Positions 14,923-50,000 of a DNA stretch of 50,000 nt are shown one piece after another. Source of the DNA: Octopus vulgaris (taxonomy: Eukaryota); contig CATOCA020000028.1 in assembly GCA_951406725.2 (NCBI GenBank), positions 1 through 50,000 on the forward strand, written 5' to 3'. Under the pieces are notes generated by a model. It did not search any database. It was not told where the DNA came from and saw only the letters and a program-made list of their open reading frames with translations. Every line of letters begins with the position of its first letter. Within the stretch, counting starts at the first letter, position 1. The position numbers and the translations under genes are program-made.

Positions 14923-14961
<39 letters not shown>

Positions 14962-16746: not shown

Positions 16747-16767
16747 GTCTTACCACTATAAGCAGGT

Positions 16768-21069: not shown

Positions 21070-21098
21070 AAATTGCTTTGATTAAAACCCCTTTCAAC

Positions 21099-23113: not shown

Positions 23114-23326
23114 TATAAACATGAAAAATAAAAACCTAAATTGAAAGAGGCGATTAAAATTTTTTCCTAACCTGCAGCCGTTTGTTGTTCGAAGTATTCG
23201 AAATTCAGCCCTCCTTCCTCAGGGTTCCTTTCTCGAGGTAAAATCCAGCAGAAAGCAGTAAGGCACTACATAGTGAGTATTCAAGTGGTGAAAGTTCAGT
23301 TTTTGGGTATCGATAAATAAGTTGCC

Positions 23327-24615
23327 TTATTTCTTTATTACCCACTAGGGGCGAACATAGAGGGGACAATACAATCTGATGTGGGGTCAGACTAGTCTAT
23401 TATTGGTAGCCTTAATGGTCATAAATGAATTGGTTACTTCCTTTCTCTTCTTCTGGTTCTCTTCTTGAGGGGTGGTTTCTGTTTTCCGTTTTTTTTTTTT
23501 GGTAACTTTTGACCACCCCTCCTCTTTTTCTTTTTCTGCACCACTTGATGATTCTACTACCTCTTTGGTTTCATGTGTTTTTTCCTCTGTTTTCTTTTCT
23601 GTTTCTGTTTCTTCCTTTTCCGACGGTGCTTCTACCTGCGGTTTAGGTTGACACTCTGCTCTTACGTGTCCCTTTTTTCCGCAGCCGAAGCACCTCGGCT
23701 TTCTTCCTTCTACGAAAACTAACACTCTCTCCTCCTCACTGAGCCTCAGTACCTCCGGTATTTCTTCCAGTGTTTGGACTTCGGCTTGGATTGCCATTGT
23801 GATGCTCTGGCCTTGCCAAAACCCCTCCTCCTCCACTGTAGCTTGGAGGATTGTGATTTTGTCCTTCAGGCCTAGCATCACTGTTCCGAACCTTCTGCCT
23901 CTGTTTATGTATTTTATGTCTTTTCTTATTGCCTTCAGACACTCCTCTATTTTCTTTTCTTCCACTTTTTGGATGCTTTTTGTTGTTATATTGTAGGTCT
24001 TATAAATGATCCTTTTCTTTTCTATTTCTTCTTTCTTTCCGACATCTGCTTCCACTGCTATTTCGTTTCCTTCTTTTTTCAGAAAGACTTCATATTTTTC
24101 CAGGTTGCTGCTATCTGTGTTGATCCTTTTTTGTTTTCGCCCTGCGACTTCCGCGAACTTCTTCGCTGGGGCCTTTTCTTTTTCCGGCGTCATCGCCGAT
24201 CCTTTTTCCGGCGTCACCGCCGGTGAACTTTCTTCACCTGAGGTTGGTGAACTTTCATCACCTGAGATCGGTGAATATGAGATAGGGAGTTCCATCTCAA
24301 GCTTTTTCAATTGGCTTTCACAGCCTTCAGAAGACATTTTGGCTTTGCAAGCCATTTGTAGATTTTTAAATGTGTACCACACAAGATGTCCCACAATAAT
24401 TCCCCCGCAAGGGGGGAACTAAATACGCAGCCTTCGCGCGAAGGCCACTGACAGTCTTATTAAAAGACACAAAATAACAATATTAACACAGCAACAATAA
24501 ACTACTAACTTTCAACAACACTATTTCAGACAAAAAAACTCACGTTTCGTTTTGAGAATCAATGAATAAGTCAAAGTAACGTCCTATCGGCTTCACGACT
24601 GCATAATGTTGGGTG
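23327..24615 (-). mobile_element. ORF1-only (ORF2-less) derivative of the Tx1-like LINE, unit 0 of the array
   Basis: Has the family 5' UTR, a diverged ORF1 and the last ~65 nt of the 3' UTR. The ORF1 C-terminus and all of ORF2 are missing. Confidence 0.9.
23387..24337 (-). CDS. Shortened LINE ORF1 protein with CCHC zinc knuckle
   Basis: Open frame MSSEGCES...CFGCGKKGHVRAEC...ATNNRLV*. It has a 55-aa in-frame deletion relative to the full units. Confidence 0.75.
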   Translation of the reverse strand: MSSEGCESQLKKLEMELPISYSPISGDESSPTSGEESSPAVTPEKGSAMTPEKEKAPAKKFAEVAGRKQKRINTDSSNLEKYEVFLKKEGNEIAVEADVGKKEEIEKKRIIYKTYNITTKSIQKVEEKKIEECLKAIRKDIKYINRGRRFGTVMLGLKDKITILQATVEEEGFWQGQSITMAIQAEVQTLEEIPEVLRLSEEERVLVFVEGRKPRCFGCGKKGHVRAECQPKPQVEAPSEKEETETEKKTEEKTHETKEVVESSSGAEKEKEEGWSKVTKKKKRKTETTPQEENQKKRKEVTNSFMTIKATNNRLV

Positions 24616-24865
24616 TTTTATTATTACCCACAAGGGGCCAACAAAGAGGGGACAATACAACCTGATGTGGGGTCAGATTCACGTATGAGGTTACAAAAGT
24701 ATGAGTTTAAAAATTTCAAAAATTTACAAAAATTGCAAAAATTATAAAAATCGAATGAGAAAAAACAGACCGGAAGACACTACAGGTGGAGTGGGGGCGG
24801 GTTCAGCTCGGACCCCACGAGCCCCGCCTCACCACTGATACTTTTGGTTTCGTTTTGATCTACAT

Positions 24866-27800
24866 TTATGTGGTGTCATCCATTCTCAACTTCCGTGCTA
24901 CATCCTTCCATCGTTCTTCATACACTCTTTTAGTCAGGCATTTTCTCTCCAGCCCTATCTTCCTTTTCAGGTGGTAGATGAAGTAATTCATCAACCCAGG
25001 GCCGGATATGAACTTGCCTGACCGTATACCTTTCATTCTCGTCTTCCATATCACCTCCTTCGCAATTGCTACCACAACGAGAAAACAAGTCTTACCTTCT
25101 TTCGCGAGGAAATCTGGTGGGTCAATTTTTTTAATACACTCAGTCGACAGCTGTACTCTTCGTGTGCTTGACAACAGCTGTTCGGCATAAACCCACACCT
25201 CAGACACGTCCGAACAATGAACAATAGCGTGCGGGACGGTTTCCCTATCCCGCCCGCATCTTGGACACATCGGACTGTCTTGGCCACCGTGCCTTGCGAG
25301 TTTATCCCGAACAGGTAGAGCTCCTCTGTAGCATTGCCATGCCAGAGACTTCTGGAAGTTGTCCAGAGTCTTCGGCTCGAACGTACGTCGGAACAGACTA
25401 GCCAGCTGATTATCGTCGAGACCCAGGGTTTCCCCAAGGTGTCTTCACATTCCGCCTCTACCAACCCTCTATAGAAGAATGTGGTGGAACCCCCACCGCA
25501 GGCGTTGCCCGAGCGACGGAATAGCAGGAGGGCCTTTCGACACTCCGTATACCATGTACCGAGTTTCGATCTACGATTCAACCAGGTTTCCCATCCACCG
25601 AAACTAGTGAACTTGGGAAACATCAGTTTTGCTAACGGAGACCACACCCGTTCACCATCCAGGTAGAGCCACAGATGTCTTAACCTCAGCGCATGTCTGC
25701 GCATCATCAGCCAAGGCATCCCTAGCCCACCCTTTAACGGTTGTTGACAGCAAGTAGAGCGTTTCACAAGTGGTTTCCTGCCCTTCCACAGGAAGTAGAA
25801 GAGCTGTCTTTCCAACTTGGTCAACCACGAATCAGGGCATGGAACGACGGAAAGGCGGTAGATGATAACCGATGCGATAAACACATTGGCCACCTCCGCC
25901 CTCCCTTTCAAGGATAGCCACCGCCTAGACCAGGTCTTGGCTACTGCAGCCACCTTGCTCGTTACCTCGCCCCAATTCTTCTCTATTTGGAGGTCTGGAC
26001 CGAACCAGACCCCTAGCAGTTTAATCGGACCCTCCGTCCAACGTCCCACGACGCTGTCAGGAGGCATCGACTTGCCTCTCCAGGTGCCGAGTTGCAAGCC
26101 GACTGACTTTTCGCGATTAACTTTTGCTCCTGTCACCGTCTCGTAATCCTCTATGGCCTTGCCTACTTTACATAGGTGGTCCATTTCGGTCACGATGATG
26201 GTGATGTCGTCCGCGTACGCTGACACTGATTTTCCATTACCTGGCTGTCTCGGGATGCCGCTCAGTTTTCGCAGTAATGGCTCAAGAGCCATCACGTACA
26301 AAAGCGGGGAGAGCGGACACCCTTGACGAACCGAGCGTTTGATTTTGAACGGCTTCGACAAGAAGCCGTTCACCCGAACTACCGAGTCGATGTTGTCGTA
26401 AATTTGGATAATCCACCTGAGGAAGCCAAGGCCCAGCCCGAACTGTGCCAGAGCAGACACCAGGTAACGATGGTCGACCCTATCAAAAGCTTTGGATTGG
26501 TCTAAATGGACCAGTGCCCCACCCTTGCCAGAATCACTATTAAACCCCTCTATAGTGTACCGCATTAGATGGAGATTATCCTGAATGGTTCTGCCCGGAA
26601 CGGCACATGTCTGTGCCTCCCCGATCAGACCATCCGCGACACGCGCCAATCTTTTCGATAACACTTTGGCCAAAATCTTCAACTCTGTGTTTAGCAGAGT
26701 GATGGGCCTGAAATTATCAATGCACTCCCCCTTGCTCGGGTCCTTTCTGACGAGAGTCACCACTCCCCGGCGCACAGATCTGGGTATCAACCCGTTCTGC
26801 TGCCAGTTCGCATAGACTTCCGCCAGTAGGTGCCCGAACAAGTCTGGCATATTCTTATATAACTCGTAGGGTAGACCATCCAAACCCGGCGCCTTGCCCG
26901 CGCCGCAGTCCGCCATTGCCTCCACCACCTCCTCAGGCGTGATTGGCCCTTCACAGCCCTCCGCATCTCGCCCCGATAAGCGCGGCAGCCCGTCGAGTAG
27001 GTCCGTAAAGGCCCTCCTCCTATCCAGTCCGCCGCACTCACCGAAAAGCTGAGCGAAGTGCTCCTGAAAGGCCTCACACATCTCCTCGGGTTCGTCTATC
27101 AACTCACCTTGTTGGTTCTTCAAAGATCGAATCGTGGCATCGTTGCCATTCCGGGCTTCCACCACTCGGGCCCATCTCACGGCGTTGATTCCTTCACATC
27201 CCATATGACGGATTCTAGCCCTGACAATGCAGCCCATGTGTTTGGCCTCGAGGTGCTGGTTTAACACCAGTCTCTTGGACGCCACCTGAGCCGCAGAGCC
27301 AGTTTTCATGGCTTCCTCTAATTCCTTAACTAGAGTAGTTTCCCTTCTAGCCTCTCTAGACACTACTCCTATGCTATATCTAATAGACTCAAACTTGATG
27401 GCTCGTTTGAGGGCGTACCACCATTTGTTATTAATGATGGCACCAGACAGCGCCCTCTGAATTATGGTCCTAATCCGGTCTCTGTACTCCTTAATCGCCA
27501 AAAGGGACGTATTAAGTTTCCAGTAACCGGATCCTCTCTTTCTAACCTTATCTATGTCAAGCTTACAGGTGACCATTTTATGATCACTGTAGCTGATCGG
27601 GTAAAACTGTGGACGCTTAGCTATTTTACTGTCTACCTTTCTAATTAGAATTCTATCTATGTATGACCTGGAAGATCCGTCGCTGTTTGACCATGTCCAC
27701 AATGGAGCGTTCGGAAATTCCAACCTATAAGGATCTGCTAGCTCAAAGCGGCTTAGCAGTTCCAGGAAGCATGTGTTACCTTTTCTATCATTCGAGCCAA

Positions 27801-28260
27801 CACAATCTACATCCGCTTTGCAAATTGTGTTAAAGTCTCCTAGCACAACTATTGAATGCGAAGTACCGAGAAAGTTCTCTAGATCACGATAATAATCACT
27901 TTGCCCATTATTACTGCAGGGTGCGTAAATTGCAACCAGTCTGATAACTTTACCGTTACTGAACGTCAAATCCATGACGACCAGCCTACCTTCTGGGTCT
28001 GAAAAAATTAACTTTTTCTCAAAAACCCGGTTTCTTTTTAGTAGGACCAACACCCCACTCCCGCCTGCAGGACTGCCAGGAGAGAAAAAACTCTCGTAGC
28101 CGTCAAACAGTGGGAGTAGATCTCTTGGCCCCTTTAACCGGGTTTCTGTAGCAACAATAACATCCAAATTGCGCGACCTGATATCATTAAGGAAGCGACC
28201 TTGCTTCCCGCTTGATCCCAGGCCGCGCACATTTAAACAACCAACAGAAATGTAGTTCAT
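24866..28260 (-). CDS. ORF2: APE endonuclease + reverse transcriptase + C-terminal zinc finger (one frameshift near 25.43 kb)
   Basis: APE motifs LNVRGL, ETRL, YAP, GDFN, IDRI, SDH. RT motifs KAPGLDG, NFRPITLLN, DQSKAFDRVDH, QGCPLSP, YADD. Zinc finger CPRCGRDRETVPHAIVHC. Confidence 0.92.
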
Positions 28261-28268
28261 CACTTACC

Positions 28269-29599
28269 TTATATCGGTAGTTTGGCTTTTTCGGCGGTTT
28301 CGCCTTCTTCTTCATTTTTTTTTTCTTTGGCTCGTGGGGAGTCCGACGTAGGCCCTCGTATAGATATGGAGACATGTCCAGTCTCAGAGGGCCCACGTCG
28401 TGGAAGAACTCGGATTTTATCCTCCTGTAGTCCTTCCGGCCTATTTTATATATGATGAAGTCTTTCATCTTCCTTATACGTTCCACCTTGGCCATGGCTG
28501 CCAACACATTGACAAGTCTGTTGTTAGTAGCCTTAATGGCCATAAATGAAGAAGTAACCTCTTTCCTTTTCTTTAGGTTTTCTTCTTCTTGAGGGGTGGT
28601 TTCAGTTTTCCGTTTTTTTTTGGTAACTTTAGACCACCCCTCCTCTTTTTCGTTTTCTTTTTCCTTTTCTGCAGCTTTTTCCACCTCTTTGGTTTCCTTT
28701 TTTTCCTCCGTTTCTTCTTTCTCCGACGGTTCTTCTGTCTGCGGTTTCGGTTGACACTCCGCTCTCACGTGCCCCTTCTTTCCGCAGCCGAAGCACCTCG
28801 GTTTTCTTCCTTCTACAAATACTAGAACTCGCTCCTCCTCATCTAGCCTCAGCACCTCTGGTATTTCTTCCAGAGTCTGGGCCTCTGCTTGTATAGCCAT
28901 TGTTATGATCTGGCCCTGCCAAAATCCCTCCTCCTCCACTGTAGCTTGGAGGATGTTGATTTTTTCTTTCAGGCCCAGCATCACTGCCGCCACCAGGCAT
29001 GAGGCGTCTGCCTCTGGGGGAATATTTCTCATTACTATCTTTGAAGTCCTTCTTCCTTTGTACAAGGGTAGAAGGACTAGATTTCCCGCTTTCTGAGGTT
29101 CTGTGGATAGCTTCTTAGCTATTTCTTCGGTTCTGAACCTCACTTCTACTGTTCCGAACCGTCTTCCTCTATTTATGTAAGTGATATCTTTTCTGATTGT
29201 CTTCAGGCACTCCTCTATTTTGCATTCTTCCACTTTTTGTATGCTTTTTGTAGTCGTGCTGTATGTCTTGTATATAATTCTTTTTTTTTCTATCTCTTCC
29301 TTTTTTTCCATATCTTTTTTCACTGCAATTTCATTTCCTTCTTTCTTTAGAAGGTCTTCATATTTCTCTAGGTTTTCTATATCTATATCTTTCTGTTTGC
29401 GTCCAACAACTTCCGCAAACTTCTTTGTTGGGGCCTTTTGTTCTGGCGTTACCGCCGATTCTTTTTCCGGTGTCACCGCCGGCGTGCTTCTCTCACCCGA
29501 GGTTTGAGATTCTTCATCACCTGAGATGGGTGAATAGGTAATGGGGAAATCCATTTCGAATTTTCCTTCCAGTTTGTATTCACTGCCTTCCAAAGACAT
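28269..29599 (-). CDS. ORF1: gag-like nucleic-acid-binding protein with CCHC knuckle (C-terminal frame ambiguous from homopolymer indels)
   Basis: MSLEGSEY... with Cx2Cx4Hx4C knuckle and K/E-rich tail. The stop is placed by analogy with unit 5 (49399). Confidence 0.85.
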
Positions 29600-29625
29600 T
29601 CTGGCTTTGCAGCCGTTAGTAGAAA

Positions 29626-29659
<34 letters not shown>

Positions 29660-29872
29660 GATGTGTTTCGTACACGAAGGCACACAATAATTCCCCCACG
29701 GGGGGAACTACGTACACAACCTTCGCGCGAAGGCCACTAACCGTCTTATTGAAAAGACACAAAATAACAATATTAACACAGCAACAATAAACTACTAACT
29801 TTCAACAACACTATTTCAGACAAAAAAACTCACGTTTCGTTTTTGAGAATCAATGAATAAGTCAAAGTAACG

Positions 29873-29906
29873 TCCTGTCGGCTTCACGACTGCATAATGT
29901 TGGGTG
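29873..29906 (-). promoter_or_regulatory. Putative internal Pol II promoter (MTE/DPE-like) at the unit 5' end, present at every junction
   Basis: CACCCAACATTATGCAGTCGTGAAGCCGACAGGACGT places a DPE-like GGACG about 30 nt from the junction. Confidence 0.35.
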
Positions 29907-30154
29907 TTTTATTATTACCCACAAGGGGCCAACAAAGAGGGGACAATACAACCTGATGTGGGGTCAGATTCACGTATGAGGTTACAAAAGTATGAGTTTA
30001 AAAATTTCAAAAATTCACAAAATTGCAAAAATTATAAAAATCGAATGAGAAAAAACAGACCGGAAGACACTACAGGTGGAGTGGGGCGGGTTCAGCTCGG
30101 ACCCCACGAGCCCCGCCTCACCACTGATACTTTTGGTTTCGTTTTGATCTACAT

Positions 30155-33100
30155 TTATGTGGTGTCATTCATTCTCAACTTCCGTGCTACATCCTTCCAT
30201 CGTTCTTCATACACTCTTTTAGTCAGGCATTTTCTCTCCAGCCCTATCTTCCTTTTCAGGTGGTAGATGAAGTAATTCATCAACCCAGGGCCGGATATGA
30301 ACTTGCCTGACCGTATACCTTTCATTCTCGTCTTCCATATCACCTCCTTCGCAATTGCTACCACAACGAGAAAACAAGTCTTACCTTCTTTCGCGAGGAA
30401 ATCTGGTGGGTCAATTTTTTAATACACTCAGTCGACAGCTGTACTCTTCGTGTGCTTGACAACAGCTGTTCGGCATAAACCCACACCTCAGACACGTCCG
30501 AACAATGAACAATAGCGTGCGGGACGGTTTCCCTATCCCGCCCGCATCTTGGACACATCGGACTGTCTTGGCCACCGTGCCTTGCGAGTTTATCCCGAAC
30601 AGGTAGAGCTCCTCTGTAGCATTGCCATGTCAGAGACTTCTGGAAGTTGTCCAGAGTCTTCGGCTCGAACGTACGTCGGAACAGACTAGCCAGCTGATTA
30701 TCGTCGAGACCCAGGGTTTCCCCCAAGGTGTCTTCACATTCCGCCTCTACCAACCCTCTATAGAAGAATGTGGTGGAACCCCCACCGCAGGCGTTGCCCG
30801 AGCGACGGAATAGCAGGAGGGCCTTTCGACACTCCGTATACCATGTACCGAGTTTCGATCTACGATTCAACCAGGTTTCCCATCCACCGAAACTAGTGAA
30901 CTTGGGAAACATCAGTTTTGCTAACGGAGACCACACCCGTTCACCATCCAGGTAGAGCCACAGATGTCTTAACCTCAGCGCATGTCTGCGCATCATCAGC
31001 CAAGGCATCCCTAGCCCACCCTTTAACGGTTGTTGACAGCAAGTAGAGCGTTTCACAAGTGGTTTCCTGCCCTTCCACAGGAAGTAGAAGAGCTGTCTTT
31101 CCAACTTGGTCAACCACGAATCAGGGCATGGAACGACGGAAAGGCGGTAGATGATAACCGATGCGATAAACACATTGGCCACCTCCGCCCTCCCTTTCAA
31201 GGATAGCCACCGCCTAGACCAGGTCTTGGCTACTGCAGCCACCTTGCTCGTTACCTCGCCCCAATTCTTCTCTATTTGGAGGTCTGGACCGAACCAGACC
31301 CCTAGCAGTTTAATCGGACCCTCCGTCCAACGTCCCACGACGCTGTCAGGAGGCATCGACTTGCCTCTCCAGGTGCCGAGTTGCAAGCCGACTGACTTTT
31401 CGCGATTAACTTTTGCTCCTGTCACCGTCTCGTAATCCTCTATGGCCTTGCCTACTTTACATAGGTGGTCCATTTCGGTCACGATGATGGTGATGTCGTC
31501 CGCGTACGCTGACACTGATTTTCCATTACCTGGCTGTCTCGGGATGCCGCTCAGTTTTCGCAGTAATGGCTCAAGAGCCATCACGTACAAAAGCGGGGAG
31601 AGCGGACACCCTTGACGAACCGAGCGTTTGATTTTGAACGGCTTCGACAAGAAGCCGTTCACCCGAACTACCGAGTCGATGTTGTCGTAAATTTGGATAA
31701 TCCACCTGAGGAAGCCAAGGCCCAGCCCGAACTGTGCCAGAGCAGACACCAGGTAACGATGGTCGACCCTATCAAAAGCTTTGGATTGGTCTAAATGGAC
31801 CAGTGCCCCACCCTTGCCAGAATCACTATTAAACCCCTCTATAGTGTACCGCATTAGATGGAGATTATCCTGAATGGTTCTGCCCGGAACGGCACATGTC
31901 TGTGCCTCCCCGATCAGACCATCCGCGACACGCGCCAATCTTTTCGATAACACTTTGGCCAAAATCTTCAACTCTGTGTTTAGCAGAGTGATGGGCCTGA
32001 AATTATCAATGCACTCCCCCTTGCTCGGGTCCTTTCTGACGAGAGTCACCACTCCCCGGCGCACAGATCTGGGTATCAACCCGTTCTGCTGCCAGTTCGC
32101 ATAGACTTCCGCCAGTAGGTGCCCGAACAAGTCTGGCATATTCTTATATAACTCGTAGGGTAGACCATCCAAACCCGGCGCCTTGCCCGCGCCGCAGTCC
32201 GCCATTGCCTCCACCACCTCCTCAGGCGTGATTGGCCCTTCACAGCCCTCCGCATCTCGCCCCGATAAGGCGCGGCAGCCCGTCGAGTAGGTCCGTAAAG
32301 GCCCTCCTCCTATCCAGTCCGCCGCACTCACCGAAAAGCTGAGCGAAGTGCTCCTGAAAGGCCTCACACATCTCCTCGGGTTCGTCTATCAACTCACCTT
32401 GTTGGTTCTTCAAAGATCGAATCGTGGCATCGTTGCCATTCCGGGCTTCCACCACTCGGGCCCATCTCACGGCGTTGATTCCTTCACATCCCATATGACG
32501 GATTCTAGCCCTGACAATGCAGCCCATGTGTTTGGCCTCGAGGTGCTGGTTTAACACCAGTCTCTTGGACGCCACCTGAGCCGCAGAGCCAGTTTTCATG
32601 GCTTCCTCTAATTCCTTAACTAGAGTAGTTTCCCTTCTAGCCTCTCTAGACACTACTCCTATGCTATATCTAATAGACTCAAACTTGATGGCTCGTTTGA
32701 GGGCGTACCACCATTTGTTATTAATGATGGCACCAGACAGCGCCCTCTGAATTATATTCCTAATCCGGTCTCTGTACTCCTTAATCGCCAAAAGGGACGT
32801 ATTAAGTTTCCAGTAACCGGATCCTCTCTTTCTAACCTTATCTATGTCAAGCTTACAAGTGACCATTTTATGATCACTGTAGCTGATCGGGTAAAACTGT
32901 GGACACTTAGCTATTTTACTGTCTACCTTTCTAATTAGAATTCTATCTATGTATGACCTGGAAGATCCGTCGCTGTTTGACCATGTCCACAATGGAGCGT
33001 TCGGAAATTCCAACCTATAAGGATCTGCTAGCTCAAAGCGGCTTAGCAGTTCCAGGAAGCCACTGTTACCTTTTCTATCATTCGAGCCAACACAATCTAC

Positions 33101-33548
33101 ATCCGCTTTGCAAATTGTGTTAAAGTCTCCTAGCACCACTATTGAATGCGAAGTACCGAGAAAGTTCTCTAGATCACGATAATAATCACTTTGCCCATTA
33201 TTACTGCAGGGTGCGTAAATTGCAACCAGTCTGATAACTTTACCGTTACTGAACGTCAAATCCATGACGACCAGCCTACCTTCTGGGTCTGAAAAATTAA
33301 CTTTTTCTCAAAACCCGGTTTCTTTTTAGTAGGACCAACACCCCACTCCCGCCTGCAGGACTGCCAGGAGAGAAAAAACTCTCGTAGCCGTCAAACAGTG
33401 GGAGTAGATCTCTTGGCCCCTTTAACCGGGTTTCTGTAGCAACAATAACATCCAAATTGCGCGACCTGATATCATTAAGGAAGCGACCTTGCTTCCAGCT
33501 TGATCCCAGGCCGCGCACATTTAAACAACCAACAGAAATGTAGTTCAT
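30155..33548 (-). CDS. ORF2 APE-RT (several 1-nt frameshifts)
   Basis: ORF pieces 33297-33551, 32240-33265, 30358-32367 and 30155-30364. Confidence 0.85.
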
Positions 33549-33556
33549 CACTTACC

Positions 33557-34885: not shown

Positions 34886-34911
34886 TCTGGCTTTGCAGCC
34901 GTTAGTAGAAA

Positions 34912-34945
<34 letters not shown>

Positions 34946-38832: not shown

Positions 38833-38840
38833 CACTTACC

Positions 38841-40169: not shown

Positions 40170-40714
40170 TCTGGCTTTGCAGCCGTTAGTAGAAAATATT
40201 TTTTTTTTTTTTTTTTTTTTTGTTTTTGAATGTGTTTCGTACACGAAGGCACACAATAATTCCCCCACGGGGGGAACTACGTACACAACCTTCGCGCGAA
40301 GGCCACTAACCGTCTTATTGAAAAGACACAAAATAACAATATTAACACAGCAACAATAAACTACTAACTTTCAACAACACTATTTCAGACAAAAAACTCA
40401 CGTTTCGTTTTTGAGAATCAATGAATAAGTCAAAGTAACGTCCTGTCGGGTTCACGACTGCATAATGTTGGGTGTTTTATTATTACCCACAAGGGGCCAA
40501 CAAAGAGGGGACAATACAACCTGATGTGGGGTCAGATTCACGTATGAGGTTACAAAAGTATGAGTTTAAAAATTTTCAAAAATAAAAATAAATGGACAAA
40601 AATCGAGTGATAGGACAGACCGGAAGACATTACAGGTGGAGTGGGGCGGGTTTAGCTCGGACCCCACGAGCCCCGCCTCCCCACTGATACTTTTGGTTGC
40701 GTTTGGTATTACAT

Positions 40715-43700
40715 TTATGTTGTAACTTTCATTCTCAACTTCCGTGCTACATCCTTCCATCGTTCTTCATACGCTCTCCTAGTCAGGCATATTCTCTCCA
40801 GCCCTATCTTCCTTTTCAGGTGAAAGATGAAATAATTCATCAAACCAGGGCCGGAGATGAACTTGCCTGACTGTAAACCTTTCATTCTCGTCTTCCATAT
40901 CACCTCTTTCGCGATTGCTACTACAACGAGAAAACAAACTTACCTTCATTCACGAGGAAATCCGGTGGGTCAATTTTTGTAATCGACTCAGTCGACAGCT
41001 GTACTCTTCGTGTACTTGACAACAGGTGTTCGGCATAAACCCACACCTCAGACACGTCCGGACAATGAACAATCGCGTGCGGGACGGTTTCCCTATCCCG
41101 CCCGCATCTTGGACATATCGGACTGTCTTGGCCACCGTGCCTTGCGAGTTTATCCCGAACAGGTAGAGCTCCTCTGTAGCATTGCCATGCCAGAGACTTC
41201 TGGAAGTTGTCCAGTGTCCTTGGCTCGAACGTACGTCGGAACAGACTGGCCAGCTGATTATCGTCGAGACCCAGGGTTTCCCCCAAGGTATCTTCACATT
41301 CCGCCTCTACCAACCCTCTATAGAAGAAAGTGGTGGAACCCCCACCGCAGGCGTTGCCCGAGCGACGGAATAGCAGGAGAGCCTTGCGACACTCCGTGTA
41401 CCAAGTACCAAGTTTCGATCTACGATTCAGCCAGGTTTCCCATCCACCGAAACTAGTGAACTTGGGAAACATCAGTTTTGCTAGCGAAGACCACACCCGT
41501 TCACCATCCAGGTAGAGCCACAGATGTCTTAACCTCAGCGCATGTCTGCGCATCATCAGCCAAGGCATCCCTAGCCCACCCTTTAACGGTTGTTGACAGC
41601 AAGTAGAGCGTTTCACAAGTGGTTTCCCGCCCTTCCACAAGAAGTAGAAGAGCTGTCTTTCCAACTTGATCAACCACGAATCAGGGCAAGGAACGACGGA
41701 AAGGCGGTAGATGATAACCGATGCGATAAACACATTGGCCACCTCCGCCCTCCCTTTCAGGATAGCCACCGCCAAGACCAGGTCTTGGCTACTGCAGCCA
41801 CCTTGCTCGTTACCTCGCCCCAATTCTTCTCTATTTGGAGGTCTGGACCGAACCAGACCCCTAGCAGTTTAATCGGACCCTCCGTCCAACGTCCCACGAC
41901 GCTGTCAGGAGGCATCGACTTGCCTCTCCAGGTGCCGAGTTGCAAGCCGACTGACTTTTCGCGATTAACTTTTGCTCCTGTCACCGTCTCGTACATCCTC
42001 TATGGCCTTGCCTACTTTACATAGGTGGTCCATTTCGGTTACGATGATGGTGATGTCATCCGCGTACGCTGACACTGATTTTCCATTACCTGGCTGTCTC
42101 GGGATGCCGCTCAGTTTTCGCAGTAATGGCTCAAGAGCCATCACGTACAAAAGCGGGGAGAGCGGACACCCTTGACGAACCGAGCGTTTGATTTTGAACG
42201 GCTTCGACAAGAAGCCGTTCACCCGAACTACCGAGTCGATGTTATCATAAATTTCGATAATCCACCTGAGGAATCCAAGGCTCAGCCCGAACTGTGCCAG
42301 GGCAGATACCAGGTAACGATGGTCGACCCTATCAAAAGCTTTAGATTGGTCTAAATGGACCAGTGCCCCACCCTTGCCAGAATCACTATTAAACCCCTCT
42401 ATAGTGTACCGCATTAGATGGAGATTATCCTGAATGGATCTGCCCGGAACGGCACATGTCTGTGCCTCCTCCGATCAGACCATCCGCGACACGCGCCAAT
42501 CTTTTCGATAACACTTTGGCCAAAATCTTCAACTCTGTGTTTAGCAGAGTGATGGGCCTGAAATTATCAATGCACTCCCCCTTGCTCGGGTCCTTTCTGA
42601 CGAGAGTCACTACTCCCCGGCGCACAGATCTGGGTATAAGCCCGTTCTGCTGCCAGTTCGCGTAGACTTCCGCCAGTAGGTGCCCGAACAAGTCTGGCAT
42701 ACTCTTATATAACTCATAGGGTAGACCATCCAAACCCGGCGCCTTGCCCGCGCCGCAGTCCGCCATTGCCTCAACCACCTCCTCAGGCGTGATTGGCCCT
42801 TCACAGCCCTCCGCATCTCGCCCCGATAAGCGCGGCAGACCGTCGAGTAGGTCCGTAAAGGCCCTCCTCCTATCCAGTCCGCCGCACTCACCGAAAAGCT
42901 GAGCGAAGTGCTCCTGAAAGGCCTCACACATCTCCTCGGGTTCGTCTATCAACTCACCTTGTTGGTTCGTCAAAGATCGAATCGTGGCATCGTTACCATG
43001 CTGAGCTTCCACCACTCGGGCCCATCTCACGGCGTTGATTCCTTCACATCCCATATGACGGATTCTAGCCCTGACAATGCAGCCCATGTGTTTGGCCTCG
43101 AGGTGCTGGTTTAACACCAGTCTCTTGGCCGCCACCTGAGCCGCAGAGCCAGTTTTCATGGCTTCCTCTAATTCCTTAACTAGAGTAGTTTCCCTTCTAG
43201 CCTCTCTAGCCACTACTCCTATGCTATATCTAATAGACTCAAACTTGATGGCTCGTTTGAGGGCGTACCACCATTTGTTATTAATGATGGTACCAGATAG
43301 TGCCCTCTGAATTATATTCCTAATCCGGTCTTTGTACTCCTTAATCGCCAAAAGGGACGTATTAAGTTTCCAGTAACCGGATCCTCTATTTTTAACCTTA
43401 TCTATGTCAAGCTTACAAGTGACCATTTTATGATCACTGTAGCTGATCGGGTAAAACTGTGGACACTTAGCTATTTTACTGTCTACTTTCTAATTAGTAT
43501 TCTATCTAGATACGACCTGGAAGATCCGTCGCTGTTTGACCATGTCCACAATGGAGCGTTCGGAAATTCCAGCCTATAAGGATCTGCTAGCTCAAAGCGG
43601 CTTAGCAGTTCCATGAAGCCACTGTTGCCTTTTCTATCTGGACACGAGCCAACATAATCTACATCCGCTTTGCAAATTGTGTTAAAGTCTCCTAGCACCA

Positions 43701-44109
43701 CTAATGAATGCGAAGTACCAAGAAAGTTTTCTAGTTCACGAAAATAATCACTTTGCCCTGTATGGTTGGGTGCGTAAATTGCAACCAGTCTGATAACTTT
43801 ACCATTACTGAACGTCAAATCCATGACGACCAGCCTACCTTCTGGGTCTGCAAAAATTAACTTTTTCTCAGAAACCCGGTTTCTTTTTAATAGGACCAAC
43901 ACCCCACTCCCGCCTGCAGGACTGCCAGGAGAGAAAAAACTCTCGTAGCCGTCAAACAGCGGGAGTAGATCTCTTGGCCCCTCTAGCCGGGTTTCTGTAG
44001 CAACAATAACATCTAAATTACGCGACCTGATATCATGCAGGAAGCGACCTTGCTTCCAGCCTGCTCCCAGGCCGCGCACATTTAAACAACCAACATAAAT
44101 GTAATCCAT
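40715..44109 (-). CDS. ORF2 APE-RT subtype B (frameshifted)
   Basis: ORF pieces 43483-44109, 42425-43426, 41965-42414, 41757-41996, 40921-41823 and 40715-40903. Confidence 0.85.
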
Positions 44110-44117
44110 TACTTACC

Positions 44118-45438
44118 TTATATCAGTGGTTCGGTTTTTTCGGCGGTTTCTTCTTCCTTCTTTTTTCTGGCTCGTGGGGAGTCTGACGTAGGCCCTCGAA
44201 TATATGTGGAGATGTCATCCAACCTAAGGGGCCACGTCGTGGAAGAACTCGGATTTTATCCTCCTGTAGTCCTTCCGGCCTATTTTATATATGATGAAGT
44301 CTTTCATCTTCCTTACACGTTCCACCTTGGCCATGGCTGCCAACACATTGACAAGTCTGTTGTTAGTAGCCTTAATGGCCATAAATGAAGAAGTAACCTC
44401 TTTCCTTTTCTTTAGGTTTTCTTCTTCTTGAGGGGTGGTTTCAGTTTTCCGTTTTTTTTTGGTAACTTTAGACCACCCCTCCTCTTTTTCGTTTTCTTTT
44501 TCCTTTTCTGCAGCTTTTTCCACCTCTTTGGTTTCCTTTTTTTCCTCCGTTTCTTCTTTCTCCGACGGTTCTTCTGTCTGCGGTTTCGGTTGACACTCCG
44601 CTCTCACGTGCCCCTTCTTTCCGCAGCCGAAGCACCTCGGTTTTCTTCCTTCTACGAATACTAGAACTCGCTCCTCCTCATCTAGCCTCAGCACCTCTGG
44701 TATTTCTTCCAGAGTCTGGGCCTCTGCTTGTATAGCCATTGTTATGATCTGGCCCTGCCAAAATCCCTCCTCCTCCACTGTAGCTTGGAGGATGTTGATT
44801 TTTCTTTCAGGCCCAGCATCACTGCCGCCACCAGGCATGAGGCGTCTGCCTCTGGGGGAATATTTCTCATTACTATCTTTGAAGTCCTTCTTCCTTTGTA
44901 CAAGGGTAGAAGGACTAGATTTCCCGCTTTCTGAGGTTCTGTGGATAGCTTCTTAGCTATTTCTTCGGTTCTGAACCTCACTTCTACTGTTCCGAACCGT
45001 CTTCCTCTATTGATGTAAGTGATATCTTTTCTGATTGTCTTCAGGCACTCCTCTATTTTGCATTCTTCCACTTTTTGTATGCTTTTTGTAGTCGTGCTGT
45101 ATGTCTTGTATATAATTCTTTTCTTTTCTATCTCTTCCTTTTTTTCCATATCTTTTTTCACTGCAATTTCATTTCCTTCTTTCTTTAGAAGGTCTTCATA
45201 TTTCTCTAGGTTTTCTATATCTATATCTTTCTGTTTGCGTCCAACAACTTCCGCAAACTTCTTTGTTGGGGCCTTTTGTTCCTGGCGTTACCGCCGATTC
45301 TTTTTCCGGTGTCACCGCCGGCGTGCTTCTCTCACCCGAGGTTTGAGATTCTTCATCACCTGAGATGGGTGAATAGGTAATGGGGAAATCCATTTCGAAT
45401 TTTCCTTCCAGTTTGCATTCACTGCCTTCCAAAGACAT
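44118..45438 (-). CDS. ORF1 (frameshifted)
   Basis: ORF pieces 45196-45537, 44742-45161 and 44224-44838. Confidence 0.8.
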
Positions 45439-45464
45439 TCTGGCTTTGCAGCCGTTAGTAGAAA

Positions 45465-45496
<32 letters not shown>

Positions 45497-45994
45497 GAAT
45501 GTGTTTCGTACACGAAGGCACACAATAATTCCCCCACGGGGGGGAACTACGTACACAACCTTCGCGCGAAGGCCACTAACCGTCTTATTAAAAAGACACA
45601 AAATAACAATATTAACACAGCAACAATAAACTACTAACTTTCAACAACACTATTTCAGACAAAAAACTCACGTTTCGTTTTTGAGAATCAATGAATAAGT
45701 CAAAGTAACGTCCTATCGGGTTCACGACTGCATAATGTTGGGTGTTTTATTATTACCCACAAGGGGCCAACAAAGAGGGGACAATACAACCTGATGTGGG
45801 GTCAGATTCACGTATGAGGTTACAAAAGTATGAGTTTAAAAATTTCAAAAATTCACAAAAATTGCAAAAATTATAAAAATCGAATGAGAAAAAACAGACC
45901 GGAAGACACTACAGGTGGAGTGGGGGCGGGTTCAGCTCGGACCCCACGAGCCCCGCCTCCCCACTGATACTTTTGGTTGCACTTGGTATTACAT

Positions 45995-48900
45995 TTATGT
46001 TGTAACTTTCATTCGCAACTTCCGTGCTACATCCTTCCATCGTTCTTCATACGCTCTCCTAGTCAGGCATATTCTCTCCAGCCCTATCTTCCTTTTCAGG
46101 TGAAAGATGAAATAATTCATCAAACCAGGGCCGGAGATGAACTTGCCTGACTGTAAACCTTTCATTCTCGTCTTCCATATCACCTCTTTCGCGATTGCTA
46201 CTACAACGAGAAAACGAAACTTACCTTCATTCACGAGGAAATCCGGTGGGTCAATTTTTGTAATCGACTCAGTCGACAGCTGTACTCTTCGTGTACCTGA
46301 CAACAGGTGTTCGGCATAAACCCACACCTCAGACACGTCCGGACAATGAACAATCGCGTGCGGGACGGTTTCCCTATCCCGCCCGCATCTTGGACATATC
46401 GGACTGTCTTGGCCACCGTGCCTTGCGAGTTTATCCCGAACAGGTAGAGCTCCTCTGTAGCATTGCCATGCCAGAGACTTCTGGAAGTTGTCCAGTGTCC
46501 TTGGCTCGAACGTACGTCGGAACAGACTGGCCAGCTGATTATCGTCGAGACCTAGGGTTTCCCCCAAGGTATCTTCACATTCCGCCTCTACCAACCCTCT
46601 ATAGAAGAAAGTGGTGGAACCCCCACCGCAGGCGTTGCCCGAGCGACGGAATAGCAGGAGAGCCTTGCGACACTCCGTGTACCAAGTACCAAGTTTCGAT
46701 CTACGATTCAGCCAGGTTTCCCATCCACCGAAACTAGTGAACTTGGGAAACATCAGTTTTGCTAGCGAAGACCACACCCGTTCACCATCCAGGTAGAGCC
46801 ACAGATGTCTTAACCTCAGCGCATGTCTGCGCATCATCAGCCAAGGCATCCCTAGCCCACCCTTTAACGGTTGTTGACAGCAAGTAGAGCGTTTCACAAG
46901 TGGTTTCCCGCCCTTCCACAAGAAGTAGAAGAGCTGTCTTTCCAACTTGATCAACCACGAATCAGGGCAAGGAACGACGGAAAGGCGGTAGGTGATAACC
47001 GATGCGATAAACACATTGGCCACCTCCGCCCTCCCTTTCAGGGATAGCCACCGCCAAGACCAGGTCTTGGCTACTGCAGCCACCTTGCTCGTTACCTCGC
47101 CCCAATTCTTCTCTATTTGGAGGTCTGGACCGAACCAGACCCCTAGCAGTTTAATCGGACCCTCCGTCCAACGTCCCACGACGCTGTCAGGAGGCATCGA
47201 CTTGCCTCTCCAGGTGCCGAGTTGCAAGCCGACTGACTTTTCGCGATTAACTTTTGCTCCTGTCACCGTCTCGTACACCTCTATGGCCTTGCCTACTTTA
47301 CATAGGTGGTCCATTTCGGTTACGATGATGGTGATGTCATCCGCGTACGCTGACACTGATTTTCCATTACCTGGCTGTCTCGGGATGCCGCTCAGTTTTC
47401 GCAGTAATGGCTCAAGAGCCATCACGTACAAAAGCGGGGAGAGCGGACACCCTTGACGAACCGAGCGTTTGATTTTGAACGGCTTCGACAAGAAGCCGTT
47501 CACCCGAACTACCGAGTCGATGTTATCATAAATTTCGATAATCCACCTGAGGAATCCAAGGCTCAGCCCGAACTGTGCCAGGGCAGATACCAGGTAACGA
47601 TGGTCGACCCTATCAAAAGCTTTAGATTGGTCTAAATGGACCAGTGCCCCACCCTTGCCAGAATCACTATTAAACCCCTCTATAGTGTACCGCATTAGAT
47701 GGAGATTATCCTGAATGGATCTGCCCGGAACGGCACATGTCTGTGCCCCTCCGATCAGACCATCCGCGACACGCGCCAATCTTTTCGATAACACTTTGGC
47801 CAAAATCTTCAACTCTGTGTTTAGCAGAGTGATGGGCCTGAAATTATCAATGCACTCCCCCTTGCTCGGGTCCTTTCTGACGAGAGTCACTACTCCCCGG
47901 CGCACAGATCTGGGTATAAGCCCGTTCTGCTGCCAGTTCGCGTAGACCTCCGCCAGTAGGTGCCCGAACAAGTCTGGCATACTCTTATATAACTCATAGG
48001 GTAGACCATCCAAACCCGGCGCCTTGCCCGCGCCGCAGTCCGCCATTGCCTCAACCACCTCCTCAGGCGTGATTGGCCCTTCACAGCCCTCCGCATCTCG
48101 CCCCGATAAGCGCGGCAGACCGTCGAGTAGGTCCGTAAAGGCCCTCCTCCTATCCAGTCCGCCGCACTCACCGAAAAGCTGAGCGAAGTGCTCCTGAAAG
48201 GCCTCACACATCTCCTCGGGTTCGTTTATCAACTCACCTTGTTGGTTCGTCAAAGATCGAATCGTGGCATCGTTACCATGCTGAGCTTCCACCACTCGGG
48301 CCCATCTCACGGCGTTGATTCCTTCACATCCCATATGACGGATTCTAGCCCTGACAATGCAGCCCATGTGTTTGGCCTCGAGGTGCTGGTTTAACACCAG
48401 TCTCTTGGCCGCCACCTGAGCCGCAGAGCCAGTTTTCATGGCTTCCTCTAATTCCTTAACTAGAGTAGTTTCCCTTCTAGCCTCTCTAGCCACTACTCCT
48501 ATGCTATATCTAATAGACTCAAACTTGATGGCTCGTTTGAGGGCGTACCACCATTTGTTATTAATGATGGTACCAGATAGTGCCCTCTGAATTATATTCC
48601 TAATCCGGTCTTTGTACTCCTTAATCGCCAAAAGGGACGTATTAAGTTTCCAGTAACCGGATCCTCTATTTTTAACCTTATCTATGTCAAGCTTACAAGT
48701 GACCATTTTATGATCACTGTAGCTGATCGGGTAAAACTGTGGACACTTAGCTATTTTACTGTCTACTTTTCTAATTAGTATTCTATCTAGATACGACCTG
48801 GAAGATCCGTCGCTGTTTGACCATGTCCACAATGGAGCGTTCGGAAATTCCAGCCTATAAGGATCTGCTAGCTCAAAGCGGCTTAGCAGTTCCATGAAGC

Positions 48901-49390
48901 CACTGTTGCCTTTTCTATCTGGACACGAGCCAACATAATCTACATCCGCTTTGCAAATTGTGTTAAAGTCTCCTAGCACCACTAATGAATGCGAAGTACC
49001 AAGAAAGTTTTCTAGTTCACGAAAATAATCACTTTGCCCTGTATGGTTGGGTGCGTAAATTGCAACCAGTCTGATAACTTTACCATTACTGAACGTCAAA
49101 TCCATGACGACCAGCCTACCTTCTGGATCTGCAAAAATTAACTTTTTCTCAGAAACCCGGTTTCTTTTTAATAGGACCAACACCCCACTCCCGCCTGTAG
49201 GACTGCCAGGAGAGAAAAAACTCTCGTAGCCGTCAAACAGCGGGAGTAGATCTCTTGGCCCCTCTAGCCGGGTTTCTGTAGCAACAATAACATCTAAATT
49301 ACGCGACCTGATATCATGCAGGAAGCGACCTTGCTTCCAGCCTGCTCCCAGGCCGCGCACATTTAAACAACCAACATAAATGTAATCCAT
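45995..49390 (-). CDS. Intact ORF2, 1131 aa: APE endonuclease, RT, zinc finger
   Basis: Uninterrupted ORF with all APE and RT catalytic motifs (ETRL, GDFN, SDH, YADD). Confidence 0.95.
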   Translation of the reverse strand: MDYIYVGCLNVRGLGAGWKQGRFLHDIRSRNLDVIVATETRLEGPRDLLPLFDGYESFFSPGSPTGGSGVLVLLKRNRVSEKKLIFADPEGRLVVMDLTFSNGKVIRLVAIYAPNHTGQSDYFRELENFLGTSHSLVVLGDFNTICKADVDYVGSCPDRKGNSGFMELLSRFELADPYRLEFPNAPLWTWSNSDGSSRSYLDRILIRKVDSKIAKCPQFYPISYSDHKMVTCKLDIDKVKNRGSGYWKLNTSLLAIKEYKDRIRNIIQRALSGTIINNKWWYALKRAIKFESIRYSIGVVAREARRETTLVKELEEAMKTGSAAQVAAKRLVLNQHLEAKHMGCIVRARIRHMGCEGINAVRWARVVEAQHGNDATIRSLTNQQGELINEPEEMCEAFQEHFAQLFGECGGLDRRRAFTDLLDGLPRLSGRDAEGCEGPITPEEVVEAMADCGAGKAPGLDGLPYELYKSMPDLFGHLLAEVYANWQQNGLIPRSVRRGVVTLVRKDPSKGECIDNFRPITLLNTELKILAKVLSKRLARVADGLIGGAQTCAVPGRSIQDNLHLMRYTIEGFNSDSGKGGALVHLDQSKAFDRVDHRYLVSALAQFGLSLGFLRWIIEIYDNIDSVVRVNGFLSKPFKIKRSVRQGCPLSPLLYVMALEPLLRKLSGIPRQPGNGKSVSAYADDITIIVTEMDHLCKVGKAIEVYETVTGAKVNREKSVGLQLGTWRGKSMPPDSVVGRWTEGPIKLLGVWFGPDLQIEKNWGEVTSKVAAVAKTWSWRWLSLKGRAEVANVFIASVITYRLSVVPCPDSWLIKLERQLFYFLWKGGKPLVKRSTCCQQPLKGGLGMPWLMMRRHALRLRHLWLYLDGERVWSSLAKLMFPKFTSFGGWETWLNRRSKLGTWYTECRKALLLFRRSGNACGGGSTTFFYRGLVEAECEDTLGETLGLDDNQLASLFRRTFEPRTLDNFQKSLAWQCYRGALPVRDKLARHGGQDSPICPRCGRDRETVPHAIVHCPDVSEVWVYAEHLLSGTRRVQLSTESITKIDPPDFLVNEGKFRFLVVVAIAKEVIWKTRMKGLQSGKFISGPGLMNYFIFHLKRKIGLERICLTRRAYEERWKDVARKLRMKVTT

Positions 49391-49398
49391 TACTTACC

Positions 49399-50000
49399 TT
49401 ATATCGGTAGTTTGGCTTTTTCGGCGGTTTCGCCTTCTTCTTCATTTTTTTCTTTGGCTCGTGGGGGAGTCCGACGTAGGCCCTCGTATAGATATGGAGA
49501 CATGTCCAGTCTCAGAGGGCCCACGTCGTGGAAGAACTCGGATTTTATCCTCCTGTAGTCCTTCCGGCCTATTTTATATATGATGAAGTCTTTCATCTTC
49601 CTTACACGTTCCACCTTGGCCATGGCTGCCAACACATTGACAAGTCTGTTGTTAGTAGCCTTAATGGCCATAAATGAAGAAGTAACCTCTTTCCTTTTCT
49701 TTAGGTTTTCTTCTTCTTGAGGGGTGGTTTCAGTTTTCCGTTTTTTTTTGGTAACTTTAGACCACCCCTCCTCTTTTCGTTTTCTTTTTCCTTTTCTGCA
49801 GCTTTTTCCACCTCTTTGGTTTCCTTTTTTTCCTCCGTTTCTTCTTTCTCCGACGGTTCTTCTGTCTGCGGTTTCGGTTGACACTCCGCTCTCACGTGCC
49901 CCTTCTTTCCGCAGCCGAAGCACCTCGGTTTTCTTCCTTCTACGAATACTAGAACTCGCTCCTCCTCATCTAGCCTCAGCACCTCTGGTATTTCTTCCAG
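49399..50000 (-). CDS. ORF1 3' half (partial, one frameshift)
   Basis: CFGCGKKGHVRAEC, ending ETAEKAKLPI*. Confidence 0.8.

What the first reader, a model, noticed from the sequence alone, without database searches (positions are those of the whole stretch)
23327..50000. Spacer-less head-to-tail array of full-length Tx1-like LINEs with identical junctions
Seen: six units in one orientation, joined at 24615/16, 29906/7, 35193/4, 40474/5 and 45744/5. Every join reads ...CGACTGCATAATGTTGGGTG|TTTTATTATTACCCACAAGGGG on the plus strand. There is no host DNA, no 5' truncation and no recognisable RNA-gene target between units. Known: LINEs are normally dispersed and 5'-truncated. Tx1-clade APEs are often sequence-specific (U2, 5S, tRNA, microsatellites, other transposons). 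Inference: this family may target its own 5' end and so build a growing array at a harmless site, in which case any TSD would be hidden in the junction. Alternatives are multimeric read-through or template-jump insertion, or unequal crossing-over.
Basis: partly seen in the sequence, partly recalled or inferred. Interest (0 to 1): 0.9.

Follow-up and report, generated by a model that had tools for sequence, protein, structure and literature searches.

The report
LINEs stacking behind a transposon's promoter
A jumping gene piles up head to tail at a dozen places in this animal genome, mostly just behind a promoter-like spot inside a giant DNA transposon; it likely borrows that promoter, and the short pieces stacked at its front end likely record earlier landing sites that can be hit again.

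Summary
The array is real: five near-identical joins, units of 5.27-5.29 kb. It is not spacer-less and its flank is not host DNA. The left flank is the right arm of a ~22-kb non-autonomous DNA transposon, 'T' (268-bp inverted ends, 8-bp duplication). The family forms head-to-tail arrays at 12 loci. Of 41 exact 3' tails in the genome, 36 abut the same zone of T or a T-derived leader on another element. Complete inserts carry a 16-18-bp target duplication at the 5' flank, between units and at the 3' flank, as in Drosophila R1 arrays. The window's ~70-bp junction is a stack of three such site-derived layers. 19 of 62 T sites hold a Tx1-type insert, from many families, all sense-oriented just behind a TATA-like motif. 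Captured leaders map to TATA+30-33, so T likely drives transcription (inferred; RNA data inconclusive). Mixed arrays away from T support self-targeting through the leader. Recombination has also shaped the window's array. The principle is known (R1, Tx1L, Tx1-Mar); the promoter-carrying target and the layered leader are a new variant.

The parts
13547..13814 (-). Right terminal inverted repeat of carrier transposon T (268 bp, begins GGATCTTTTC)
   Evidence: 98% identical to the left end in the C26 copy; 8-bp duplications at 14 of 17 end pairs tested
13547..23326 (-). Right arm of T, a non-coding TIR element of ~21.7 kb in the C26 copy; holds Mariner/Tc1-like fragments and satellites
   Evidence: colinear at 96-99% with copies on C26, C18, C30, C3, C10, C22
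15915..16742 (.). 70-bp minisatellite, cargo of T
   Evidence: also in T copies on C26, C30, C3, C18
16768..18872 (.). (GGCTC)n microsatellite lying inside T
   Evidence: between the T-colinear blocks
23166..23326 (-). T target zone and exon-like stretch behind it: site core 23299-23314, splice-donor-like CAG|GTTAGG at 23166-23174 (donor label is recalled, not tested)
23327..24613 (-). U0: ORF1-only, internally shortened Tx1-type element (ORF 23387-24343) with its own tail (23327-23351); first ~155 nt replaced by main-family leader and 5' UTR
24614..29904 (-). U1, full-length LINE: tail 24614-24637, ORF2 28263 to ~24866 with one frameshift near the end, ORF1 29599-28190 (CCHC knuckle), core 5' end 29838
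29839..29904 (-). Layered leader, present at all five joins: layer 3 CCCAACATTATGCAGTC 29888-29904; GTGAA-type spacer 29882-29887; layer 2 CCGA(C/T)AGGACGTTACT 29866-29881; layer 1 29839-29865, a near copy of the T site
   Evidence: the layers occur as T-site sequence or target duplications at other loci
29660..29800 (-). Structured part of the 5' UTR (two long hairpins); function not tested
   Evidence: -44.9 kcal/mol, z = -4.2, 0 of 200 shuffles as good; no Rfam family at gathering score in 19000-30500
29905..35191 (-). U2, full length, frameshifted
35192..40472 (-). U3, full length, frameshifted
40473..45742 (-). U4, full length; main-family 5' part joined to a 3-8% diverged ORF2 region
45743..50000 (-). 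U5, cut by the contig end; unbroken ORF2 49390-45995 (1131 aa: APE, RT, zf-RVT)

Best explanation
A Tx1-like LINE sits in sense orientation in a narrow zone just behind a TATA-like motif of a giant non-autonomous DNA transposon (T), flanked by a 16-18-bp target duplication; it likely re-inserts into that regenerated duplication, is likely transcribed from T's promoter and so would carry a copy of the landing site forward as a leader. Steps: (1, shown) Element core GAAACGTGAG ... TAATAATAAAA(CA), with APE, RT and CCHC domains. (2, shown) The site lies in T, with the duplication at the 5' flank, between units and at the 3' flank. (3, inferred) T's CCAAT/octamer/TATA-like promoter starts an RNA 30-33 nt behind the TATA, so the RNA holds a few T bases plus the upstream duplication. 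(4, inferred) Target-primed reverse transcription nicks the regenerated site 5' of the resident unit, so arrays grow at the promoter-proximal end. (5, inferred) If the leader matches the upstream DNA it anneals and gives a precise, repeated junction. If the RNA lands in another T variant or off T, the leader stays as a new layer, and that layer is itself a target. (6, partly shown) Recombination between neighbours then lengthens and mosaics the array.
For: 41 exact tails: 24 followed by a main-family leader, 1 by U0, 3 by a related family's T-derived leader, 8 by the T zone, 5 by unrelated DNA. Duplication ATCGATACTCAAAAAC at 5' flank, junction and 3' flank on C24 and C27:19.66 Mb (one mismatch at the C24 junction), and around single inserts on C8 (degenerate 3' copy) and C30:7.96 Mb. 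Other duplications on C30:13.36 Mb and C22:14.23 Mb. 19 of 62 exact T promoter ends are occupied; 15 distinct ones tested by tblastn all show ORF1/ORF2 homologues in sense frames (30-95% best identity), and the other 4 are main-family inserts in sense. The same leader sits behind three different T variants (C22, C30, C26), so it likely travels with the RNA. Leaders map to TATA+30 (6 sites), +32 and +33 in the shortest donor-type sites. On C27:31.88 Mb the promoter-proximal unit has the longest leader; on C22:14.18 Mb divergence from the majority rises toward the 3' end (33, 79, 157 substitutions). A six-element array of at least four families on C10:76.66 Mb and a two-element array on C15 have T-derived leaders but no T promoter or arm in their flanks. 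Among 28 young copies, 75 variable sites are shared across arrays and 12 within one array only. 4 of 5 off-target singletons are 5'-truncated, against 3 of 35 units in stacks or T sites (Fisher p = 0.002, copies not independent). Precedent: R1 (PMC2718515).
Against: Transcription from T is not shown: the RNA-like contigs laid on an empty site cannot give a start. The promoter labels are recalled motifs, and the younger T subfamily has lost the CCAAT- and octamer-like matches. In donors with longer A-runs or longer zones the leaders map further out (+36 to +51). The endonuclease was not assayed, and the duplicated sequences share little beyond a GATA-like core. Counts are inflated by duplication of occupied T copies (C27:32.99 and 31.88 Mb share one 5' junction). 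In the window no outer duplication can be checked: the 5' end is off the contig, and the T variant on the left lacks layer 3. U0's join is best explained by recombination. Age polarity fails or is flat in the C22:14.23, C27:32.95 and C30:10.43 Mb arrays.
Confidence: 0.7

Rival explanations
1. Position-specific targeting: the ribonucleoprotein is tethered by T's pre-initiation complex or open chromatin and cuts near the start site with only a weak sequence taste.
For: At least three unlike duplications start at about TATA+35 to +44 in 7 of 9 main-family inserts (read by hand). Other families enter at about +45 to +105. All 19 inserts are sense. Empty sites vary most in this zone: length 71-125 nt against 32-40 and 53-63 for the next segments; 32 distinct 30-mers in 40 sites against 15 and 22 nearby. 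Analogy: TRE5-A at tRNA genes (PMC5391098, abstract).
Against: Off-T arrays re-use leaders with no promoter in sight. Off-target sites begin GATA, GTTA or GACA like the T sites. Particular families seem to favour particular points in the zone (by eye).
Confidence: 0.25
2. Insertion makes only singles and dimers; long arrays with uniform joins, such as this one, were expanded mainly by unequal crossing-over and gene conversion.
For: Joins are uniform within and differ between arrays. U0, U4 and U5 are chimeras that keep the same join. Some neighbours differ by 0.06-0.1% and share variants in blocks. This is the accepted model for the D. melanogaster R1 array (10.1101/158386, passages).
Against: It does not explain mixed-family stacks, joins that differ within arrays (C22:14.18, C27:31.87, C30:13.36 Mb), or across-array sharing of variants (75 against 12). 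It complements the best explanation more than it excludes it.
Confidence: 0.35
3. Read-through transcripts of two or more units, or template jumping, insert multimers in one event.
For: The tail has no long poly(A) and units abut. The C15 pair has the same family order and junction type as a pair in the C10:76.66 Mb array, and its first unit is within about 1% of it.
Against: The second units of those pairs differ by about 3.5% and have different tails. Junctions in C24 and C27:19.66 Mb equal the local outer duplication. The C10 mixed array is ~31 kb.
Confidence: 0.1
4. The window's array is an assembly expansion.
For: Unplaced 50-kb contig ending in the array; arrays on C27 end at 100-N gaps; 79 of 115 indels lie in homopolymers. 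No read-level check was obtained.
Against: Units differ by 0.3-3.7% with unit-specific mosaic tracts; 11 further array loci on chromosome-scale contigs, several closed on both sides with matching duplications.
Confidence: 0.04

Closest known systems
R1 tandem arrays of Drosophila (R1 clade, 28S rDNA)
   Same: APE-type LINE; tandem copies separated by the target duplication; transcripts carrying 6-27 nt of upstream target that anneal to give precise 5' joins (PMC2718515, passages and section 18); later expansion by unequal exchange (10.1101/158386, passages).
   Different: The target here is a promoter-like zone in a mobile DNA transposon, not an RNA gene. It is a ~60-bp zone whose sequence varies, not one conserved site. 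Leaders are retained and stacked.
Tx1L in Tx1D (Xenopus) and Tx1-Mar / SINEU in Mariner-N4_AMi (crocodilians)
   Same: Tx1-type LINE aiming at a non-autonomous DNA transposon; tandem inserts sandwiching a duplication; 5' extensions taken from the carrier and transcription from flanking DNA proposed (PMC4494074, passages and section 20).
   Different: The carrier is ~22 kb with Merlin-like ends; long arrays of autonomous elements; many families share the zone; inserts are sense to a TATA-like motif.
Utopia / Keno (U2 snRNA)
   Same: Several families co-maintained at one multicopy target, sometimes in tandem (PMC4640811, passages).
   Different: No RNA-gene target found here (Rfam); Utopia uses a restriction-like endonuclease.
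CNL1 of Cryptococcus
   Same: Reported to insert into copies of itself in arrays (PMC12810828, passages).
   Different: R2-like and subtelomeric; here an external target precedes self-insertion.
TRE5-A of Dictyostelium
   Same: LINE placed relative to a promoter complex (PMC5391098, abstract); model for the position-specific rival.
   Different: Pol III genes, upstream insertion; tethering is untested here.
Merlin DNA transposons (for carrier T)
   Same: 5'-GG ends, inverted repeat within 24-462 bp, 8-bp duplication (criteria from PMC8101967, passages).
   Different: No transposase linked to these ends; copies of 6-37 kb filled with other repeats.

Membership tests
L1-group APE LINE | ORF2 with N-terminal APE, RT and C-terminal cysteine-rich domain | tested here: met
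   PF03372, PF00078, PF13966; best PDB match human L1 ORF2p, E 2e-65, against 5e-26 for R2; GDFN, SDH, QGCP, YADD present
Tx1 clade | RT phylogeny groups it with Tx1L, Keno, Kibi | not testable with these tools
   No named reference of the clade was available: relatives were unnamed; one distant hit bears the TX1 name at 26% identity. No tree was built.
Tx1 clade | ORF1 with RRM-type domains and a CCHC knuckle (feature recalled) | tested here: met
   CCHC at residue 269; Atlas look-alikes zf-CCHC and ZCCHC3-type RNA-binding domains, scores 0.89-0.92, a lead only; Pfam scan of ORF1 blank
Target-specific Tx1 families | More than 20% of flanks in one multicopy sequence (criterion of PMC4494074) | tested here: met
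   36 of 41 tails at the T zone or T-derived leaders; 12 of 20 loci inside T
R1-type arrays by re-insertion | Junction holds the same duplication as the outer flanks | tested here: met
   C24, C27:19.66, C22:14.23, C30:13.36 Mb; not checkable in the window itself, whose 5' end is missing
R1 clade / rDNA-targeting | Inserted in an rRNA or other RNA gene | tested here: not met
   No Rfam match at gathering score in 19000-30500
Promoter-borrowing (co-transcribed) LINE | RNA starts in flanking target DNA | tested here: inconclusive
   Leader mapping to TATA+30-33 is indirect; contigs cannot show a start
Merlin (carrier T) | 5'-GG inverted ends and 8-9-bp duplication | tested here: met
   268-bp repeat; exact 8-bp duplication in 14 of 17 end pairs, near in 2, none in 1
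Merlin (carrier T) | Partner encoding a DDE_Tnp_IS1595 transposase with the same ends | tested here: inconclusive
   150 PF12762 matches in the genome; 20 of them examined, none bounded by T ends; no transposase of its own seen in the ORF lists of 14 T-ended elements and 9 older copies (read by eye)
Telomeric arrays (HeT-A/TART, CNL1) | At chromosome ends | tested here: not met
   Arrays are internal, e.g. C27:32.95 of 40.2 Mb and C10:43.6 of 118 Mb

The most novel reading that the evidence does not exclude
A guild of Tx1-type LINEs homes on the transcription start of a Pol II promoter that is itself spread by a giant DNA transposon. Targeting is set by the promoter complex more than by sequence. 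Each element is promoterless, takes over T's start site, and stacks past landing sites on its 5' end as a readable, heritable insertion log that also seeds arrays away from T. The hypervariable start zone of empty T copies would be the scar of repeated nicking or of escape.
Probability: 0.25. Interest if true: 0.8.

Novelty: new variant of a known kind. Interest (0 to 1): 0.57.

Why it matters
It gives a natural, high-copy test bed for three open points on APE-type LINEs: how the 5' end is joined (leader annealing against leader retention), whether specificity comes from the nuclease or from tethering, and how dispersed elements become tandem arrays. The stacked leaders order past insertion events without an outgroup. 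About half the full-length copies examined have an unbroken ORF2 (17 of 36 at 1130 aa or more), so the element may be assayable. Target choice of octopus L1-Tx1 families was not mentioned in the passages and supplement rows of the 2026 repeat annotation that I searched. Searches listed no paper on it, but Repbase, Dfam and most subscription papers could not be searched. The principle itself is established, and unchecked AI notes from this scan report similar Tx1 arrays in other genomes, which lowers the surprise.

Tried and rejected
(1) Contig C58 as the missing half of the C27:32.95 Mb array, which shares the leader and ends at a 100-N gap: not supported. The 8 bp outside the window's right T end do not match the C27 left flank. 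A genome search for the expected partner end gave 2 hits with other end variants. The left end of the C27:31.88 Mb copy was not found. (2) RNA-gene target: Rfam blank. (3) Expression: no listed holder on record as RNA. Four RNA-guessed runs laid on an empty T site show depth 0, 13.6, 0, 0 just upstream of the zone and 19, 125, 4, 0 in it, but these are contigs with no DNA control, and one contig bridges the site: no verdict. Junction support in independent reads remains open. (4) Naming T's transposase: PF12762 search and ORF lists negative or inconclusive. (5) Clade placement by named relatives: none named. (6) 3' tail structure: main-family tail no better than shuffles (z 0.29), U0 tail z -2.05. 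(7) A bacterial promoter scan was uninformative for a eukaryote. (8) Earlier findings by place and by sequence: nothing. (9) Strict 5'-to-3' age order in arrays: seen in 2 arrays, absent or flat in 3. Rows dropped: the variant-sharing count used 28 of 36 copies (those with under 45 differences from the majority). The tail census uses exact matches only and misses diverged tails. The 62 T ends are exact matches and omit at least five occupied sites seen elsewhere.
Full report
Observation. The quoted join occurs five times in the window, on one strand. Cut at the joins, the units measure 1289, 5291, 5287, 5281, 5270 and 4256 bp. U1-U3 differ by 0.34-0.40%, U4 and U5 by 3.3-3.7% from them, and the left-most piece U0 by 16%. 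ORF2 has APE, RT and zf-RVT domains and is closest to human L1 ORF2p among solved structures. ORF1 has a CCHC knuckle and resembles ZCCHC3-type RNA-binding domains (a lead). The Tx1 label rests on this architecture (recalled) and on target behaviour; no tree with named references could be made. The window is the whole contig C58 of a 2.8-Gb, 227-contig genome. It is probably an octopus, from genome size and repeat look (inference; the O. vulgaris assembly is given as 2.8 Gb in PMC13282606).

It is a family habit. The junction query hit copies spaced ~5.28 kb apart on several chromosomes. An exact 49-nt tail pattern has 41 matches, reversed control 0. All 41 were classified: 24 run into a main-family 5' end, 1 into U0, 3 into a related family, 8 into one conserved flank, 5 into unrelated DNA. 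They fall into 20 loci, of which 12 are arrays; one more, an inverted pair on C10, looks like a duplicate of the C15 pair.

The flank is a transposon. The DNA left of 23326 has 167 first-look candidates in the genome and is colinear over about -12 to +10 kb between chromosomes. It ends in 268-bp inverted repeats starting GG, one at window 13547. 90 left-type and 64 right-type exact ends exist, and 14 of 17 end pairs have an exact 8-bp duplication. These ends fit the Merlin criteria (PMC8101967, passages), but no transposase was tied to them. I call it T. It holds only fragments of other repeats and satellites.

One zone of T is hit. An exact motif ending T's left arm has 62 matches. By eye, 19 are followed by an insert, 2 by a bare tail remnant and 41 are empty. 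The 15 distinct inserts tested are ORF1 or ORF2 homologues in sense frames, at 30-95% best identity, so many families are involved, several of them ORF1-only. The other 4 are main-family inserts in sense. The motif contains TATTTAAA, preceded in older copies by ATTGG and ATTTGCAT. Reading these as TATA, CCAAT and octamer is recalled knowledge, untested. Main-family duplications start at about TATA+35 to +44 in 7 of 9 inserts; other families enter up to about +105. With some 62-170 zones of ~100 bp in 2.8 Gb, 12 of 20 loci in T is far beyond chance, though some were inherited when occupied T copies duplicated.

The junction. In complete inserts the element runs from GAAACGTGAG to TAATAATAAAA, usually plus CA. 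ATCGATACTCAAAAAC stands at the 5' flank, between units and at the 3' flank on C24 and C27:19.66 Mb; other arrays show CCGATAGGACGTTACT or TCACCATATAGTGCCTT in the same roles. Off-target singletons have 17-18-bp duplications, one with a 5' inversion, as expected of target-primed reverse transcription. The window's join resolves into tail, layer 3 (a T-site variant; compare L198 and the 5' flanks on C27), a GTGAA spacer with layer 2, and layer 1, a near copy of the common site. One leader appears behind three different T variants, so leaders likely travel with the RNA. In the shortest donor-type sites they begin at TATA+30, +32 and +33; in sites with longer zones they map further out. That spacing is what a TATA-directed start would give (established knowledge, recalled). 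RNA data did not decide it.

Self-targeting. On C10:76.66 Mb six full-length elements of at least four families (ORF2 about 68-97% identical to U5's) stand head to tail. They have T-derived leaders, and no T promoter or arm was found in the flanks held. On C15 a pair has an outer duplication in unrelated DNA and an inner one inside the leader. Both fit insertion into leaders; a read-through dimer remains possible for C15.

Recombination also acts. U0 switches from main-family to another family's sequence about 155 nt in. U4 and U5 switch at 1.2-1.6 kb. Some neighbours on C27 and C22 differ by 0.06-0.1%. Yet among 28 young copies 75 variable sites are shared across arrays, 12 within one array and 62 are private, which argues against purely local expansion; homoplasy and consensus errors may add to the first number. 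79 of 115 indels lie in homopolymers, so some frameshifts may be assembly errors. 17 of 36 copies have an ORF2 frame of 1130 aa or more. The idea that C58 continues the gap-ended C27 array failed the duplication test.

Comparison. R1 arrays separated by the target duplication, and R1 transcripts carrying upstream target bases, are described in PMC2718515 (passages and section 18) and 10.1101/158386 (passages). Tx1 families aimed at DNA transposons, tandem inserts around a duplication, and 5' extensions from the carrier are in PMC4494074 (passages and section 20). Utopia (PMC4640811, passages), CNL1 (PMC12810828, passages) and TRE5-A (PMC5391098, abstract) are further parallels. PMC13282606 (passages; supplement search) counts 13 recently active L1-Tx1 families in O. 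vulgaris and showed nothing on targets or arrays in what I searched. Searches listed no description of this system. Repbase, Dfam, most subscription papers and bioRxiv supplements were out of reach. Five unchecked AI notes from other genomes report similar Tx1 arrays; they are leads, not support.

Verdict. A real feature with a known principle in a new setting: a target-specific Tx1-like LINE that re-inserts into its regenerated duplication, inside a giant mobile carrier, with stacked leaders that make the target portable. Best explanation 0.7; promoter tethering, the boldest reading, 0.25. Interest 0.57; new variant of a known kind.

Noticed in passing
window 443-672 and 1028-1450; many places in loci: An abundant dispersed SINE-like repeat, itself often in ~185-bp tandems, ends in the same CCCCTTGTGGG..TAAAGAAA tail as these LINEs; it may be mobilised by a Tx1-type partner without sharing the target.
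   Followed up: no
G000 T copies: A family of 6-37-kb non-autonomous transposons with 98-99% identical 268-bp ends and fresh 8-bp duplications, carrying nested RTE, Mariner, Helitron and other LINE fragments and satellites; its transposase is unknown.
   Followed up: partly
window 15915-18872: A 70-bp minisatellite next to ~2 kb of (GGCTC)n whose middle is degenerate and whose ends are pure; it lies inside T, and the middle may reflect read error.
   Followed up: partly
empty T sites: The 30-60 bp behind the TATA-like motif are hypervariable in empty copies, and two sites (L197, L215) hold only a short tail remnant, as if inserts were lost or the site repeatedly nicked and repaired.
   Followed up: partly
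L052, L054, L059, L063, L067, L074, L198, L213; C10:43.640-43.644 Mb; C22:14.245-14.249 Mb: Several ORF1-only families of ~1.6-1.8 kb with Tx1-type tails stack at the same zone, like U0: non-autonomous passengers that keep ORF1.
   Followed up: partly
window 29629-29658, 34915-34944, 40199-40227, 45468-45496: A 29-30-nt A run (sense) sits in the 5' UTR just before ORF1, behind two strong hairpins; it is only 5 nt in U0.
   Followed up: partly
C4:19.58-19.63 Mb (L174-L178): Five T promoter ends clustered at ~10-15-kb spacing, suggesting tandem duplication of part of T.
   Followed up: no
C10:43.62-43.63 Mb: An inverted copy of the C15 two-element array abuts another array head to head, with both first units truncated at the inversion.
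   Followed up: partly
C1, C2, C9, C18 older T-core copies: Copies about 10% diverged share only ~-4.6 to +5 kb of T and lacked these inverted ends in the ranges fetched, so the promoter module may predate the present carrier.
   Followed up: partly
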